NCBI RefSeq assembly: GCF_003991155.1
Contig: NZ_CP031293.1
Source of the DNA: Escherichia coli
GTDB lineage: Bacteria; Pseudomonadota; Gammaproteobacteria; Enterobacterales; Enterobacteriaceae
Direction: 5' to 3' (one strand)
DNA: 64,000 nucleotides
The stretch's first letter is position 1; every line of letters begins with the position of its first letter. Positions 47,498 to 52,054 of this stretch are shown here, piece after piece. The position numbers were made by a program, and so were the translations under genes. The notes beneath the pieces are model-generated. The model saw only the letters and a list, made by a program, of their open reading frames with translations, did no database searches and was not told where the DNA came from.

Positions 47498-47603
47498 AAA
47501 AAAAACCCGGCATAGGGGACCGGGAAGAGGATAGTCTGCCGTCTCCAGACTAATAAACCGTTATAACACTCCCTGTTGGCACGGGAAACTTTGTGCTCTC
47601 AGT
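47498..47603 (-). ncRNA. gadY: GadY small RNA
   Basis: Minus-strand sequence ACTGAGAGCACAAAGTTTCCCGTGCCAACAGGGAGTGTTATAACGG...CCTATGCCGGGTTTTTTTT matches the recalled GadY sequence and ends in a terminator. Confidence 0.8.
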
Positions 47604-47849
47604 AAGTTAAATATAACTTTTACTGGAAATAAGATCAGCCATTTTTTTATAAACATAAGCTATACGCTGTGCGAAAATATATTCGTGTTGCATTTACTTA
47701 TTGTCAATTAACTGTTATGCAAAACTACTTTGTGGATAAATTTTGGTCCTACCAAATCTGGCAGTTTTTGCGCTAAGAAACAGTCTGGCATCATTTCATT
47801 AGTATACTGAAATTGAAATAATCGCAGTAATGAAATATAAGGGATAGTC

Positions 47850-48578
47850 ATGACTCATGTCTGCTCGGTGATCCTCGTTCGTCGTTCATTCGATATTTAT
47901 CATGAACAGCAAAAAATATCGTTGCATAACGAGAGTATCCTGCTGCTGGATAAAAATTTGGCAGACGATTTTGCGTTTTGTTCACCGGATACACGACGAC
48001 TGGATATCGATGAGCTGACAGTTTGCCATTACTTACAAAATATTCGTCAGATACCACGCAATTTAGGGTTACATAGCAAAGACCGTCTGTTAATTAACCA
48101 GTCACCCCCCATGCCGCTGGTGACGGCGATTTTTGATAGTTTCAATGACTCCGGGGTAAATTCGCCGATACTGAGCAAAATGCTCTATCTTTCCTGTTTA
48201 TCGATGTTTTCTCATAAGAAAGAACTGATCCCCTTACTTTTCAATAGTATCAGTACTGTTTCAGGAAAAGTTGAACGCCTTATTAGCTTTGATATCGCCA
48301 AACGTTGGTATCTGCGCGATATTGCGGAAAGAATGTATACCAGCGAGAGTCTCATCAAAAAAAAGTTGCAGGATGAAAATACCTGTTTCAGTAAAATATT
48401 ACTCGCCTCCAGGATGTCGATGGCCAGACGATTACTCGAGTTACGTCAAATTCCTCTGCATACTATTGCGGAAAAATGTGGCTATAGCAGTACGTCGTAC
48501 TTTATAAACACATTTCGACAATATTATGGTGTAACACCACATCAGTTTGCGCAACATTCGCCAGGTACCTTTTCCTGA
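47850..48578 (+). CDS. gadW: AraC-family acid-resistance regulator GadW
   Basis: 242-aa ORF with C-terminal AraC HTH; position between gadX and mdtF. Confidence 0.9.
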   Translation: MTHVCSVILVRRSFDIYHEQQKISLHNESILLLDKNLADDFAFCSPDTRRLDIDELTVCHYLQNIRQIPRNLGLHSKDRLLINQSPPMPLVTAIFDSFNDSGVNSPILSKMLYLSCLSMFSHKKELIPLLFNSISTVSGKVERLISFDIAKRWYLRDIAERMYTSESLIKKKLQDENTCFSKILLASRMSMARRLLELRQIPLHTIAEKCGYSSTSYFINTFRQYYGVTPHQFAQHSPGTFS

Positions 48579-48940
48579 CATATTTTGCATTTGAATATTG
48601 GTCAGGATCTCACACCTGCTTCATGTGAAACTCTTCCCTGATGATTTCTGCCGGGCTACCGGCTAGTTCTCTTTCGCAGTTTGCCAGGCGGTATAGGTAT
48701 TTTCAGGAGGAAAAGACTCGGCATGTTTGGGATTATTAAGCTGACAATTCATACGATTACGGGAATGTGGGTCAGTATTGTGCTGTTCAAATTGATGACG
48801 AATGGCTGGAGTGGTTTCTACTTTCAGTGCTGTGTACTAAGCCTGGTATTCCTGACGGTTAGCTGGTTGTTGAGTGGTGAATGGTTAGCAGGAAAGAGTA
48901 AGGCTGAACCTTCACGTTCAACCTTACTCTCATTTACACG

Positions 48941-51900
48941 TTACGCTTTTTTAAAGCGGGCAAAGAGATGTTCCACTACAACGAAAAAGACCGGAACAAA
49001 GTAAATTGCCAGCACTGTTGCGGCAAACATCCCGCCCATTACGCCGGTACCTACCGCGTTTTGCGCGCCAGAACCGGCACCATGACTGATAACCAGCGGC
49101 AGCACGCCGAGAATAAAGGCCAGAGAGGTCATCAGGATTGGGCGTAAACGCATTCGCGCCGCTTCGATGATCGCCTCTATCGGCGTTTTCCCTTCTTTCT
49201 GCATCATCTCAACGGCAAATTCGACAATCAGGATGGCGTTTTTGGCGGAAAGCCCGATGGTGGTCAGCAAACCAACCTGGAAGTAGACGTCATTACTTAA
49301 GCCGCGTAGATCGGTGGCCAGTAATGCGCCAACGACGCCTAACGGAACAACCAACATCACCGAGAACGGAATTGACCAGCTTTCATAAAGTGCGGCGAGG
49401 GCGAGGAACACCACGACCAGTGAAATGGCATATAGCGCGGGAGCCTGGTTTGAGGATAACGCTTCCTGATACGACAGTCCGGTCCATGAGTAGCCGACGC
49501 CAGCCGGAAGTTTAGCGACCAGGTCTGCCATAAATTTCATGGCGTCACCGGTACTTTTCCCGGCCGCCGCTTCACCTAAAATCTCCATTGACGGGATGCC
49601 GTTGTAGCGTTCCAGTCGCGGTGAACCATAGGTCCATTCGGTAGACGAGTAGGCAGAAAGCGGTGCCATCGTGCCAGAGGCGTTGCGTACATACCATTGG
49701 TTGATGTTATCCGGCAACATACGGAACGGCGTGCCTGCCTGGACATACACTTTTTTCACCCGCCCCTGGTTGAGGAAGTCGTTCACGTAGCTGCTGCCGA
49801 AGGCGGTGGAAATTGTCTGGTTGATATCAGACAGCGCCACGCCCATAGCCTCGGCTTTCGCAGCGTTGACGTTCACTTTGAACATCGGCGTATCTTCCAG
49901 GCCGTTCGGGCGAACCCCGGTGACCTGATTCGGTGATTGCGCTGCCAGTGATAACAGCTCGTTTCGCGCCTGGGTTAGTTTTTCGTGCCCCAGGTTACCG
50001 TTGTCCAGCAGTTCCATATCAAAACCTGACGCGGTACCCAGTTCAGCCACCGCGGGTAAGTTGAACGGGAAGACGACGGCTTTATTGATACTGCTTAGCG
50101 CAATCATTGCCCGCTGAATAATCGCGGTAACCGAGTTTTCCTCGCCGACACGTTCAGACCACGGCTTGAGGCTGATAAACGCCAGACCGTTGTTTTGCCC
50201 CTGACCACTGAAGCCAAAGCCACCAACGGTAAACACCGACTGAACATTATTTTTCTCTTTTGTCAGATAATAATCCGTCACCTGTTGTAGCACTTTCGTG
50301 GTGTTAACCATGGTGGCACCGGAAGGTAACTGCGCGGTGGTCATAAATACCCCCTGATCCTCTTCTGGTAAGAAAGAGGTCGGCGTGCGCAGGAACAGCA
50401 CCGCCATCCCGGCGCAAATCAGGAGGTAGACCACCATGTAGCGACCGGTACAACGCAACAGCGAGCGGGTGCTATCGGTATAGTGCTGAGTTGATTTTTC
50501 AAACAGCGTGTTGAAGCGTGCGAACAGGGCGTTAGGTTTATGACCGCCTTCCGGCGCGGCTTTCAGAATGGTGGCGCACAGGGCAGGGGTCAGGCTCATT
50601 GCTACAAATACTGAAAGCAGCATGGAGGAGATCAGCGTGATGGAGAACTGGCGGTAGATCTCCCCGGTCGCACCGCTCATAAAGGCCATCGGCATAAACA
50701 CTGCGGAAAGAACAACGGCAATCCCGACCAGCGCACGTTGGATCTGCCCCATCGATTTATGCGTCGCTTCCTTCGGCGGTAGCTTATCTTCCGCAATGAC
50801 ACGCTCGACGTTCTCCACCACCACGATGGCGTCATCCACCAGTAACCCTATCGCCAGCACCATCCCGAACATAGTTAACGTGTTGATGGTGAAACCGACC
50901 GCCGACAAGATCGCAAACGTCCCGAGAATAACCACCGGTACGGCAATCGTCGGGATGATTGTGGCGCGGAAATTCTGCAAAAACAGATACATGACCAGGA
51001 AGACGAGGATGATAGCCTCAACCAGCGTTTTGAAAACTTCCTGAATAGAAATTTTGATAAACGGTGTGGTGTCGTAAGGATAAACCGTCTTCAGGCTTGC
51101 GGGGAAATAGGCTGATAAACGGTTCAGCTCCTCTTTCACCGCTCGCGAGGTATCCAGGGCGTTTGCTCCGGTAGCCAGTTTGATGGCGATCCCGGCAGCA
51201 GGTTTGCCGTTATAGCGCGCCACGGTGGAATAATCTTCCGCCCCAAGTTCGACGCGGGCGACATCACGCAGCAGCACTTGCGAACCATCTTGCTGAACTT
51301 TCAACAGGATTTTGCCAAATTCTTCCGGCGTTTGCAGACGCGTCTGCACAATGATCGAGGCGTTCAGTTGCTGGTCTGCCGCCTGTGGCATGCCACCCAG
51401 TTGACCACCGGAAATCTGGTTGTTTTGCACCTTAATCTGGGAAATAACATCGGAAGGTACCAGGTTATATTTATTGAGTTTTTGCGGGTCCAGCCAGATA
51501 CGCATGGCGTACTCGGAACCAAAGAGCTGTACGCTACCAACGCCCGCGGTACGGCTTAGCGGGTCTTTGATATTAGACGCTACATAGTCGGCGATATCGT
51601 ACTGGTTGAGGCTGCCGTTATCAGAAATAAACGCCGCTACCATCAGGATATTACTGCTCGACTTATCGACGCTAATCCCCTGCTGCTGCACCGCTTCAGG
51701 TAATGAAGGCATAGCGAGTTGCAGTTTATTTTGCACCTGAACCTGTGCGATATCAGGCGATGTCCCAGTCTCGAAGGTCAGAGTAATAGAGGCATTACCC
51801 GCCGCATCACTGGTTGAAGACATGTACATCAGGCCATCAAGCCCATTCATATTTTGCTCAATCACCTGAGTGGCCGAGTCTTCTACCGTTTGCGCATCGG

Positions 51901-52054
51901 CACCTGGATAGGTAGCGCTGACGGTAATGGTCGGTGGCGCAATCTGCGGATACTGCGCAACCGGTAAGTTCATGATCGCCAGACCACCTGCAAGCATCAT
52001 AATAATGGCAAGTACCCAGGCAAAAACCGGGCGATCAATAAAATAGTTAGCCAT
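48941..52054 (-). CDS. mdtF: RND multidrug efflux pump inner-membrane subunit MdtF
   Basis: 1037-aa AcrB-like ORF. Confidence 0.95.

What the first reader, a model, noticed from the sequence alone, without database searches (positions are those of the whole stretch)
48723..49004. Unannotated 93-codon ORF between gadW and mdtF, overlapping the mdtF 3' end on the opposite strand
In the 362-bp gadW-mdtF gap, an ATG at 48723 preceded by AGGAGG (48705..48710, 12-nt spacing) opens a frame encoding a product with two hydrophobic segments (MFGIIKLTIHTITGMWVSIVLFKLMTNGWSGFYFQCCVLSLVFLTVSWLL...). It runs 64 bp into the convergent mdtF 3' end. Against it: the SD spacing is long, it uses several rare codons (AGA, CTA, GGA), and I do not recall a gene here. 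It could still be a small membrane protein or just the gadW 3' UTR.
Basis: seen in the sequence. Interest (0 to 1): 0.25.

Follow-up and report, generated by a model that had tools for sequence, protein, structure and literature searches.

The report
Unannotated acid-induced small membrane protein gene
The ORF is a real, conserved E. coli gene for a 93-residue two-helix membrane protein just after the acid-resistance regulator gadW; it was already reported in 2023 as "sORF15" but is still missing from genome annotations, and its function is unknown.

Summary
An ATG at 48723 opens a 93-codon frame ending at 49004. AGGAGG sits at 48705-48710, 12 nt upstream. The gadW-mdtF gap is 362 bp and the frame overlaps the mdtF 3' end by 64 nt.

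The ORF is not new. It is sORF15 of Schumacher et al. 2023 (PMC10746267), found by ribosome profiling in the gadW 3' UTR. It was induced about 16-fold at pH 4.4 and detected as a FLAG-tagged protein. RefSeq K-12 and PGAP still do not annotate it.

My comparisons show protein-level purifying selection:
- The frame is 282 nt, with no indel or stop, in eight Escherichia lineages out to E. albertii.
- The SD and its 12-nt spacer length are kept in all of them.
- dN/dS is about 0.08-0.28 outside the mdtF overlap, against about 1 in control frames.
- 59 of 60 evenly sampled E. coli genomes keep the exact length.
- E. fergusonii has a 54-residue syntenic ortholog consisting only of the two-helix core.

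Codons 58-70 also encode a conserved minus-strand hairpin, probably the mdtF terminator. Codons 73-93 are fixed by MdtF, because the third codon positions of the two genes coincide.

No homolog, domain or structure exists outside Escherichia. A role as an accessory to MdtEF or GadC is only inference.

The parts
48705..48710 (+). Shine-Dalgarno AGGAGG of sORF15, 12 nt before the ATG
   Evidence: Read directly. The block TTTTCAGGAGGAAAA and the 12-nt spacer length are the same in all 8 Escherichia lineages, while the IGR upstream is only 75-77% identical in the four most divergent lineages.
48723..49004 (+). sORF15 coding sequence (93 codons plus TAA), a small two-TM inner-membrane protein
   Evidence: ORF. 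It is identical in position to sORF15 at NC_000913.3:3663464-3663745(-), with one residue changed (R65C in K-12). Published evidence: RPF log2FC 4.2 and RNA log2FC 4.0 at pH 4.4, and a FLAG Western blot. It is intact in 8 lineages with dN/dS 0.07-0.20 over the full length.
48723..48887 (+). Codons 1-55: the conserved two-helix core (TM1 about residues 3-25, loop TNGWSG, TM2 about 32-52) with the invariant motif GWSGF-F-CC
   Evidence: dN/dS is 0.03-0.19. AF2 gives helices 2-26 and 32-57 with pLDDT 72-80. This is the only part kept in the 54-aa E. fergusonii ortholog P0050.
48894..48931 (-). 16-bp stem, 6-nt loop hairpin 10 nt after the mdtF stop, followed by CUCUUUCCUGCU. Probably the mdtF intrinsic terminator, embedded in sORF15 codons 58-70.
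   Evidence: MFE fold: z = -2.1 for the 166-nt region; hairpin-containing 66-nt segments fold at -22 to -28 kcal/mol in all 8 lineages. 15-16 of 16 pairs are kept on the - strand against 14 on the + strand, with one compensatory double change in L006. The simple terminator scan missed it because the U-tract is interrupted.
48941..49004 (.). 64-nt antisense overlap of sORF15 codons 73-93 with the last 21 codons plus stop of mdtF. The third codon positions of the two genes coincide.
   Evidence: Coordinates. Both sets of third positions fall on coordinates equal to 2 mod 3 (arithmetic on those coordinates). There are zero non-synonymous differences in this part in every pair, which MdtF constraint alone explains.
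47850..48578 (+). gadW, the upstream gene whose transcript carries sORF15
   Evidence: The paper places sORF15 in the gadW 3' UTR. GadW RPF log2FC is 3.03 against 4.21 for sORF15.
48941..52054 (-). mdtF (RND efflux permease), convergent neighbour
48650..48673 (+). GCCGG-gcta-CCGGC hairpin plus TAGTTCTCTT. Possibly a weak or leaky terminator between gadW and sORF15.
   Evidence: It is the only terminator-like site the scan found, and about 0.8 are expected by chance. The stem is partly kept in other lineages and partly deleted in L004. Function not shown.
48625..48666 (+). sORF14 (13 aa, GTG start), the second published candidate in this spacer. Not conserved as a peptide.
   Evidence: Coordinates from Table S7 of PMC10746267. 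In other lineages the frame gives products of 6 to 126 aa, and the GTG is GTA in L005.

Best explanation
The ORF is a genuine protein-coding gene, the same as the published sORF15.

Shown or published: it is transcribed on the gadW mRNA and induced at pH 4.4. It is translated from the ATG at 48723 using the conserved AGGAGG.

Inferred from hydropathy, the AF2 model and the positive-inside rule: the 93-residue protein inserts in the inner membrane as a helical hairpin. The N-terminus and the very basic C-terminal tail (11 K/R against 2 D/E) face the cytoplasm. The short invariant loop TNGWSG faces the periplasm.

Selection acts on the two-helix core, codons 1-55. The rest of the reading frame is laid over other signals:
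- Codons 58-70 run across the minus-strand hairpin that probably terminates mdtF.
- Codons 73-93 run antisense through the end of mdtF, with wobble positions aligned.

The tail sequence is therefore largely dictated by mdtF. The tail is absent from the E. fergusonii ortholog.

Function is inferred only. Like other small membrane proteins of stress regulons, the core most probably binds and modulates a larger membrane protein of the acid response. The RND pump MdtEF-TolC next door (by analogy with AcrZ and AcrB) and the antiporter GadC are the obvious candidates. I put the claim that this is a real, selected small membrane protein gene at about 0.85-0.9, and any specific partner at no more than about 0.2.
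For: - Identity with sORF15: same coordinates and sequence apart from one residue.
- Published expression (PMC10746267): RPF log2FC 4.21 (padj 1e-38), RNA log2FC 4.03 at pH 4.4 against pH 7.6, continuous coverage, and a FLAG-tagged product from a construct carrying only 15 native nt upstream of the ATG.
- Frame integrity: 282 nt without indel or stop in window, K-12, L003-L008, out to E. whittamii and E. albertii. The upstream spacer has indels and 75-77% identity in the four most divergent lineages.
- Selection on codons 1-72: dS 0.82 and dN 0.064 between E. coli and E. albertii (Fisher 1e-10). Omega is 0.08-0.28 in the ORF frame and about 0.5-3 in three of the five control frames tested. The one other low frame is the wobble-aligned antisense frame, which has 3 stops; the remaining antisense frame is intermediate (0.5-1.3). 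Variable columns by codon position are 20/14/41.
- The SD block and the spacer length are the same in all lineages.
- Population sample: 59 of 60 evenly spread complete E. coli genomes match the 311-nt query over exactly 311 nt. The three most divergent ones fetched are intact with 0-1 residue changes.
- E. fergusonii: a syntenic 54-aa ORF (gadW-like gene, then the ORF, then convergent mdtF) shares 21 of 48 aligned residues (20 of 41 by BLASTP). pN is 0.26-0.30 against saturated pS of 0.95.
- Fold: AF2 gives helices 2-26, 32-57 and 65-89. Charge distribution.
Against: - No functional data exist.
- The Western blot came from arabinose-driven plasmid expression, not the native locus, and all translation evidence comes from one study.
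- The SD-to-ATG spacing of 12 nt is longer than optimal.
- The ORF has no homolog outside Escherichia and matches no Pfam, NCBIfam or PDB entry.
- PGAP and the curated K-12 record do not call it.
- Some predicted proteins in public collections carry frameshifted or truncated C-termini (P0026, P0032, P0039, P0033). One sampled genome has an IS3 insertion in the ORF. Loss is therefore tolerated at least occasionally.
- The E. fergusonii copy has a GTG start and no recognisable SD.
- Codons 56-72 show relaxed omega, up to 0.8.
- If gadW transcripts ended at the 48894-48931 hairpin they would lack the stop codon. The 3' end of the + strand transcript is not known.
- The lineages compared are few and related, and the sequence is short, so omega values are rough.
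Confidence: 0.85

Rival explanations
1. Pervasive translation of the gadW 3' UTR. Ribosomes load on a chance SD and ATG, and the peptide has no function. The ORF survives because the sequences compared are close relatives.
For: An ORF of this length arises in 3.5% of random sequences of this composition. The family is restricted to one genus and matches no known family. The SD spacing is long. Frameshifted variants and an IS insertion occur.
Against: Synonymous divergence is high (dS 0.7-0.8 to E. albertii, saturated to E. fergusonii), yet dN is 0.05-0.15, there are no indels, and the SD is kept unchanged. The non-coding spacer next to it diverges faster and has indels. The frameshift allele checked was absent from all 5426 complete genomes, while the wild-type control found 4952. 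This suggests that at least some frameshifted predictions come from draft-assembly errors.
Confidence: 0.06
2. The conservation reflects RNA-level functions of the convergent region rather than a protein. Candidates are the mdtF terminator and 3' UTR, antisense pairing between the gadW and mdtF transcripts, and the mdtF coding constraint.
For: Codons 58-70 coincide with a conserved minus-strand hairpin that shows a compensatory change. Codons 73-93 are fully explained by MdtF constraint, since the wobble positions are aligned and Nd = 0. No terminator was found that would stop either transcript before they overlap.
Against: This accounts only for the last third of the ORF. Codons 1-55 lie outside the hairpin and outside mdtF, and they show the lowest omega (0.03-0.19), third-position-biased change and an invariant peptide motif. 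The 152-nt stretch upstream of the ORF (48579-48730, the IGR through the first codons) has no unusual RNA structure (z = +1.3); codons 1-55 themselves were not folded separately. The E. fergusonii ortholog keeps the peptide core with a quite different nucleotide sequence (58% nt identity).
Confidence: 0.05
3. A type I toxin-like small hydrophobic protein, whose expression is held in check by the overlapping antisense mdtF transcript.
For: It is a small hydrophobic membrane protein with a 3' antisense overlap to another transcript.
Against: It has two TM helices and 93 residues, not a single TM of under 60. No dedicated antisense sRNA or Rfam family lies in the spacer apart from GadY, which is elsewhere. 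There is no Pfam match to toxin families. Arabinose induction for 1 h gave a detectable product, and no toxicity was reported. It sits as the last cistron of a regulator transcript rather than as a separate cassette.
Confidence: 0.03

Closest known systems
sORF15 of E. coli K-12 MG1655 (Schumacher et al. 2023, mSystems 8:e01037-23, PMC10746267)
   Same: It is the same gene. It has the same position between gadW and mdtF, the same start and stop, and a 93-aa product that differs at one residue (R65 here, C65 in K-12).
   Different: Nothing material differs. The paper gave expression evidence, topology and AF2 predictions but no selection analysis. It reported homologs above 80% identity in Vibrio, Klebsiella, Salmonella and Enterococcus. 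I could not reproduce that. Two exhaustive protein searches returned only Escherichia-type sequences, so those hits are probably mislabelled or contaminated records (my inference).
AcrZ (49-aa inner-membrane protein that binds the RND permease AcrB and is co-regulated with acrAB)
   Same: Both are small inner-membrane proteins of E. coli expressed under the same stress programme as an RND pump. Here the pump gene is the immediate neighbour. The original authors also suggested MdtF as a possible partner.
   Different: There is no sequence relationship: no Pfam family matched at E <= 10. sORF15 has two TM helices rather than one and is twice the length. Binding to MdtF is untested. acrZ is not adjacent to acrAB, whereas this gene overlaps mdtF.
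Other stress-induced small membrane regulators of E. coli (MgtS, MgrB, SgrT, KdpF, CydX and the like; from general knowledge)
   Same: All are short hydrophobic proteins, induced by a specific stress, encoded in or beside the regulon they act on, and long missed by annotation.
   Different: Those are mostly single-TM proteins of under 60 aa with known partners. sORF15 has no known partner and is confined to the genus Escherichia.
Convergent 3'-3' overlapping gene pairs with embedded or bidirectional terminators
   Same: The stop codon of one gene lies inside the other gene. The terminator hairpin of the partner lies inside the coding sequence. The codon phase aligns the wobble positions, which minimises mutual constraint.
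   Different: In most such pairs the overlap is only a few nucleotides. Here it is 64 nt, plus a 38-nt hairpin. The extension looks lineage-specific, because E. fergusonii ends the ORF before its own, different terminator hairpin.

Membership tests
sORF15 (Schumacher et al. 2023) | Located at NC_000913.3:3663464-3663745 (-), between gadW and mdtF, with ATG start and TAA stop | tested here: met
   The window-to-K-12 alignment is 99% identical with the same ORF boundaries. Coordinates and sequence come from Table S7.
sORF15 (Schumacher et al. 2023) | Product MFGIIKLTIHTITGMW...KKTGTK, 93 aa | tested here: met
   92 of 93 residues are identical, with R65 here and C65 in K-12.
sORF15 (Schumacher et al. 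2023) | Ribosome occupancy and induction at pH 4.4 | not testable with these tools
   Taken from the paper for K-12. Not measured for the strain of this window, in which gadX is additionally disrupted by IS1.
Protein-coding gene under purifying selection | Reading frame kept open and in register in diverged relatives | tested here: met
   8 of 8 Escherichia lineages have 282 nt with no indel or stop. 59 of 60 spread E. coli genomes show no net length change.
Protein-coding gene under purifying selection | dN/dS well below 1 in the claimed frame and not in control frames | tested here: met
   Omega is 0.08-0.28 against about 0.5-3 in three of the five control frames (one antisense frame is intermediate, 0.5-1.3). 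The wobble-aligned antisense frame is also low, as expected, but has 3 stops.
AcrZ-like RND pump accessory proteins | Sequence membership in the AcrZ family | tested here: not met
   hmmscan against Pfam-A and NCBIfam at E <= 10 matched no family.
AcrZ-like RND pump accessory proteins | Single TM helix of about 49 aa | tested here: not met
   There are two TM helices plus a third predicted helix in 93 aa.
AcrZ-like RND pump accessory proteins | Physical binding to the RND permease and an effect on substrate range | not testable with these tools
   No interaction data exist. The structure tool reports no interface measure, so a fusion or complex model was not attempted.
AcrZ-like RND pump accessory proteins | Co-regulation with the pump | tested here: inconclusive
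   Literature only. sORF15 and gadW are induced at pH 4.4. gadW and gadE-mdtEF both belong to the YdeO regulon (PMC4222967). No direct comparison of sORF15 and mdtF levels was available.
Type I toxin small proteins | Single-TM peptide under 60 aa with a dedicated antisense sRNA, toxic when overexpressed | tested here: not met
   It has 93 aa and two TM helices. No sRNA family lies in the spacer. No toxin family matched. Toxicity itself was not tested.

The most novel reading that the evidence does not exclude
sORF15 is a dedicated, acid-induced accessory subunit of the neighbouring MdtEF-TolC efflux pump (a two-helix functional analogue of AcrZ) or of the GadC antiporter. Its gene has grown over the mdtF terminator and 3' end, so that convergent transcription of gadW-sORF15 and gadE-mdtEF couples the expression of pump and accessory through RNA overlap.
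Probability: 0.15. Interest if true: 0.55.

Novelty: already known. Interest (0 to 1): 0.3.

Why it matters
The acid fitness island of E. coli is among the most studied stress loci in bacteria. Even so, this conserved gene inside it is absent from RefSeq and PGAP annotation, so it is invisible to most genome-wide screens and knock-out collections.

The selection evidence assembled here raises sORF15 from a ribosome-profiling candidate to a gene that deserves a name and an annotation. It also shows which part matters: the 55-residue two-helix core with the GWSGF-F-CC motif.

The layout has practical consequences. Deletions or C-terminal tags of either mdtF or sORF15 will damage the other gene or its terminator. 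This should be considered when interpreting existing mdtF and gadW mutants.

If the protein proves to modulate MdtEF or GadC, it would add a component to acid resistance and efflux control.

Tried and rejected
- **Remote homology.** I ran a word-indexed search of 5.8 billion protein clusters and a profile HMM search of 1.84 billion representatives using residues 1-72 only. The restriction avoids spurious matches to antisense translations of RND pump 3' ends. I also searched Pfam, NCBIfam and PDB sequences. Nothing turned up outside Escherichia. The only divergent relative is the E. fergusonii 54-mer.
- **Rfam.** A scan of 46000-50000 found only GadY, upstream of gadW. No known RNA family lies in the gadW-mdtF spacer.
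- **Promoter and terminator scans**. No sigma-70-like promoter was found. The only terminator-like site is a weak 5-bp GC hairpin at 48650. The scan missed the strong minus-strand hairpin, which RNA folding revealed.
- **Structured RNA upstream of the ORF.** The IGR from the gadW stop through the start codon is not more stable than shuffles (z = +1.3). Rejected.
- **Antisense frame as the real gene.** Its omega is equally low because the wobble positions are shared, but it has 3 stops. Rejected.
- **The 107-codon TTG-extended version (48681).** Not favoured. The conserved SD lies inside it, the stretch upstream of the SD diverges like non-coding DNA, and the published construct lacking the TTG still gave product.
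- **Frameshift allele count.** The GGAAAG-to-GGAAG allele inferred from P0032 and P0026 had no match in 5426 complete genomes, while the wild-type control matched 4952.
- **AlphaFold model of an sORF15-linker-MdtF fusion.** Considered but not run, because the tool returns no interface or PAE information.
- **Follow-up literature.** Searches for a later paper naming or characterising sORF15 found none.
Full report
**1. What is in the sequence**

The window is E. coli. The queried 501-nt stretch is 100% identical to strain 2016C-3878 and near-identical to O157 strains. The acid fitness island is in the reverse orientation relative to K-12.

gadW lies at 47850..48578 (+) and mdtF at 48941..52054 (-). 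The GadY sRNA matches at 47493..47606 (-).

Every element of the finding is correct:
- The gap between gadW and mdtF is 362 bp.
- AGGAGG lies at 48705-48710, followed by a 12-nt spacer.
- The ATG is at 48723 and the TAA ends at 49004, giving 93 codons.
- The frame overlaps the mdtF 3' end by 64 nt.
- The product has two hydrophobic segments.

No CDS is annotated here in NC_000913.3 or in any of about 90 PGAP-annotated genomes listed.

Length alone is weak evidence. 3.5% of first-order Markov sequences of this region contain an ATG ORF of at least 93 codons.

**2. It has already been described**

A full-text search led to Schumacher et al. 2023 (mSystems, PMC10746267). Their Table S7 lists sORF15 at NC_000913.3:3663464-3663745 (-), 282 nt, ATG to TAA. 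The K-12 sequence corresponds to this ORF with one residue changed (C65 in K-12, R65 here).

The paper reports the following:
- The authors found it by eye in the gadW 3' UTR in Ribo-seq data.
- At pH 4.4 against pH 7.6, RPF log2FC was 4.21 (padj 1e-38) and RNA log2FC was 4.03, with translation efficiency unchanged.
- DeepTMHMM predicted two TM helices.
- A 3xFLAG fusion was detected by Western blot. It was expressed from pBAD24 with only the 15 native nucleotides upstream of the ATG.
- GadW itself had RPF log2FC 3.03.

I found no later paper that names or characterises the protein.

**3. New evidence: protein-level purifying selection**

Using GadW as a neutral probe, I fetched the orthologous gadW-mdtF interval from six Escherichia species-level representatives:
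- an E. coli strain (L003)
- Escherichia sp. MOD1-EC7003 (L004)
- the divergent "E. coli" E69 (L005)
- Escherichia sp. E1V33 (L006)
- E. whittamii (L007)
- E. albertii (L008)

The main results, with K-12 and the window added, are:
- **Frame.** All eight sequences have a 282-nt frame with no indel and no stop.
- **Start signals.** The block TTTTCAGGAGGAAAA and the 12-nt spacer length are the same in all eight.
- **Contrast with the spacer.** The spacer between the gadW stop and the SD has indels. It is only 75-77% identical in the four most divergent lineages, against 82-89% for the ORF.
- **dN/dS.** Nei-Gojobori estimates on codons 1-72, outside the mdtF overlap, give dS 0.82 and dN 0.064 for E. 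coli against E. albertii (omega 0.08, Fisher p 1e-10). Across the pairs tested, omega is 0.08-0.28.
- **Control frames.** The other two + frames and one antisense frame give omega of roughly 0.5-3, and a second antisense frame is intermediate (0.5-1.3). The one antisense frame that is also low shares its wobble positions with the ORF and contains three stops.
- **Codon position.** Variable columns fall 20/14/41 on positions 1/2/3.

**4. Within E. coli**

5411 of 5426 complete genomes carry the region. I took 60 records at even steps down the ranking. In 59 of them the 311-nt query aligns over exactly 311 nt of the record, so there is no net indel.

The remaining record has an IS3-family element inserted after codon 41. 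The three most divergent genomes I fetched encode the protein with 0-1 substitutions.

Public protein collections do contain C-terminally frameshifted or truncated versions (P0026, P0032, P0033, P0039). Several of these need multiple homopolymer length changes, some of them inside mdtF. The GGAAAG-to-GGAAG allele behind two of them is absent from all complete genomes, while the wild-type control found 4952. I therefore think many of them are assembly errors, though occasional real loss clearly happens.

**5. A divergent ortholog defines the core**

I searched 1.84 billion representative proteins with a profile of residues 1-72. Only copies of this same protein came back, plus one genuinely divergent relative.

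That relative is P0050, 54 aa, from E. fergusonii ATCC 35469 (CU928158). Its context is syntenic:
- a GadW-like regulator (62% identity), followed 19 nt later by the small ORF
- a hairpin GGCCGGtttCCCGGCC after the ORF
- a convergent mdtF (93% identity), then mdtE, a GadE-like gene, and hdeD, hdeA and hdeB

The peptides share 21 of 48 aligned residues (20 of 41 in the BLASTP alignment). These include the invariant G28-W-S-G-F32, F34 and C36-C37 (E. coli numbering). pN is 0.26-0.30 against a saturated pS of about 0.95.

The E. fergusonii protein ends just after TM2, does not overlap mdtF, uses GTG and has no obvious SD. The selected unit is therefore the two-helix hairpin. This fits the omega profile in the other lineages: 0.03-0.19 for codons 1-55 and 0 to 0.8 for codons 56-72.

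**6. Anatomy of the 3' third**

- **Hairpin.** Folding the minus strand downstream of the mdtF stop shows a perfect 16-bp stem with a 6-nt loop at 48894-48931, followed by CUCUUUCCUGCU. The 66-nt segments containing it fold at -22 to -28 kcal/mol in all eight lineages. It keeps 15-16 of 16 pairs on the minus strand but only 14 on the plus strand, because G-U pairs become C-A mismatches. L006 carries a compensatory T-to-C and A-to-G double change. This is most simply the mdtF terminator. It occupies sORF15 codons 58-70, the segment where protein constraint is relaxed.
- **Overlap.** Codons 73-93 are antisense to the last 21 codons of mdtF. Both genes have their third positions on the same nucleotides. 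The total absence of non-synonymous change there is thus explained by MdtF and says nothing about sORF15.
- **Tail.** The K/R-rich tail (11 K/R, 2 D/E) is what the antisense of a hydrophobic TM12 gives. It fits a cytoplasmic location.
- **Transcript ends.** No terminator-like site follows the sORF15 stop on the + strand. The two convergent transcripts therefore probably overlap. The real 3' ends are unknown.

**7. Structure and relatives**

AlphaFold2 with the 10-sequence alignment gives helices 2-26, 32-57 and 65-89. pLDDT is 72-80 over the hairpin and below 55 over most of the tail. This agrees with the paper.

No Pfam, NCBIfam or PDB sequence match exists. The paper's statement that homologs above 80% identity occur in Vibrio, Klebsiella, Salmonella and Enterococcus is not borne out by my searches. 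Every named hit is Escherichia. I regard those as mislabelled records, which is inference.

**8. How it probably works**

- **Shown or published:** transcription with gadW, acid induction, translation from 48723.
- **Shown here:** selection on the peptide core across the genus, and conserved start signals.
- **Inferred:** an N-in, C-in hairpin in the inner membrane, acting by binding a larger membrane protein of the acid response.

MdtEF-TolC is one candidate, being the neighbour and allowing the AcrZ-AcrB analogy. GadC is the other. Both were already suggested by the original authors.

Membership in the AcrZ family is rejected: there is no sequence match, and there are two TM helices rather than one. 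The functional analogy remains open.

**9. Rivals**

- **Non-functional pervasive translation** is contradicted by omega and by conservation of the SD.
- **An RNA-only explanation** accounts for the last third of the ORF but not for codons 1-55.
- **A type I toxin** is unlikely from size, topology and context.

**10. Verdict**

The gene is already in the literature, so novelty is low.

The value added here is fourfold:
- the selection evidence
- the genus-wide distribution, including the truncated E. fergusonii form
- the layered layout of CDS, terminator hairpin and antisense mdtF end
- the point that current annotations and mutant designs ignore this gene

Noticed in passing
window 48623-48628 (+), overlapping the sORF14 start at 48625: The hexamer ATGTGA, a start codon immediately followed by a stop, is kept as a start-stop in all 8 Escherichia lineages (ATGTAA in L005, GTGTGA in E. 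albertii). The published sORF14 peptide, by contrast, is not conserved: its frame gives 6 to 126 aa, and the GTG is lost in L005. The ribosome density assigned to sORF14 might belong to a start-stop site. This could also be chance.
   Followed up: partly
window 48894-48931 (-): A strong, conserved 16-bp hairpin lies 10 nt after the mdtF stop. It pairs better on the minus strand and shows one compensatory change. It lies inside sORF15 codons 58-70 and is probably the mdtF terminator. The simple terminator scan did not detect it.
   Followed up: yes
window 46038-46735 (+) and 46753-47481: ORFs of IS1 insA/insB size (91 and 167 aa) sit inside gadX, leaving an N-terminally truncated gadX. The best-matching strain 2016C-3878 has the same arrangement, annotated as IS1B plus a gadX pseudogene. 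In this strain gadW and sORF15 cannot be read through from an intact gadX transcript.
   Followed up: partly
window 48579-48722 (gadW-sORF15 spacer): Genomic SELEX (Shimada et al. 2017, PMC5493296) lists RpoH and RpoE holoenzyme binding peaks in the convergent mdtF-gadW spacer, where no promoter would be expected. sORF15 RNA and RPF are induced somewhat more than gadW (log2FC 4.0-4.2 against 3.0). Both hint at a separate promoter, or at regulated read-through of the 48650-48673 hairpin. No sigma-70 promoter was found.
   Followed up: no
L014 8166-8206 (E. fergusonii): Between the 54-aa ortholog and mdtF, E. fergusonii has a different GC-rich hairpin (GGCCGGtttCCCGGCC). It is followed by a T-rich run on the mdtF strand. 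The terminator has therefore been replaced between lineages, and the E. coli-type ORF extension runs across its own version.
   Followed up: partly
L002 (strain 2016C-3878), locus tags around gadW and mdtF: The locus tags jump from BEN53_RS21425 (mdtF) to RS21435 (gadW), skipping RS21430. An earlier PGAP run may have called and later dropped a gene in this gap. GenBank submissions do hold 'hypothetical protein' entries for this ORF (P0009, P0011, P0022).
   Followed up: no
L010 (strain SW070912) 1182-2410: An IS3-family element is inserted in sORF15 after codon 41, between gadW and mdtF. This is a natural knock-out strain that could be used for phenotyping.
   Followed up: partly
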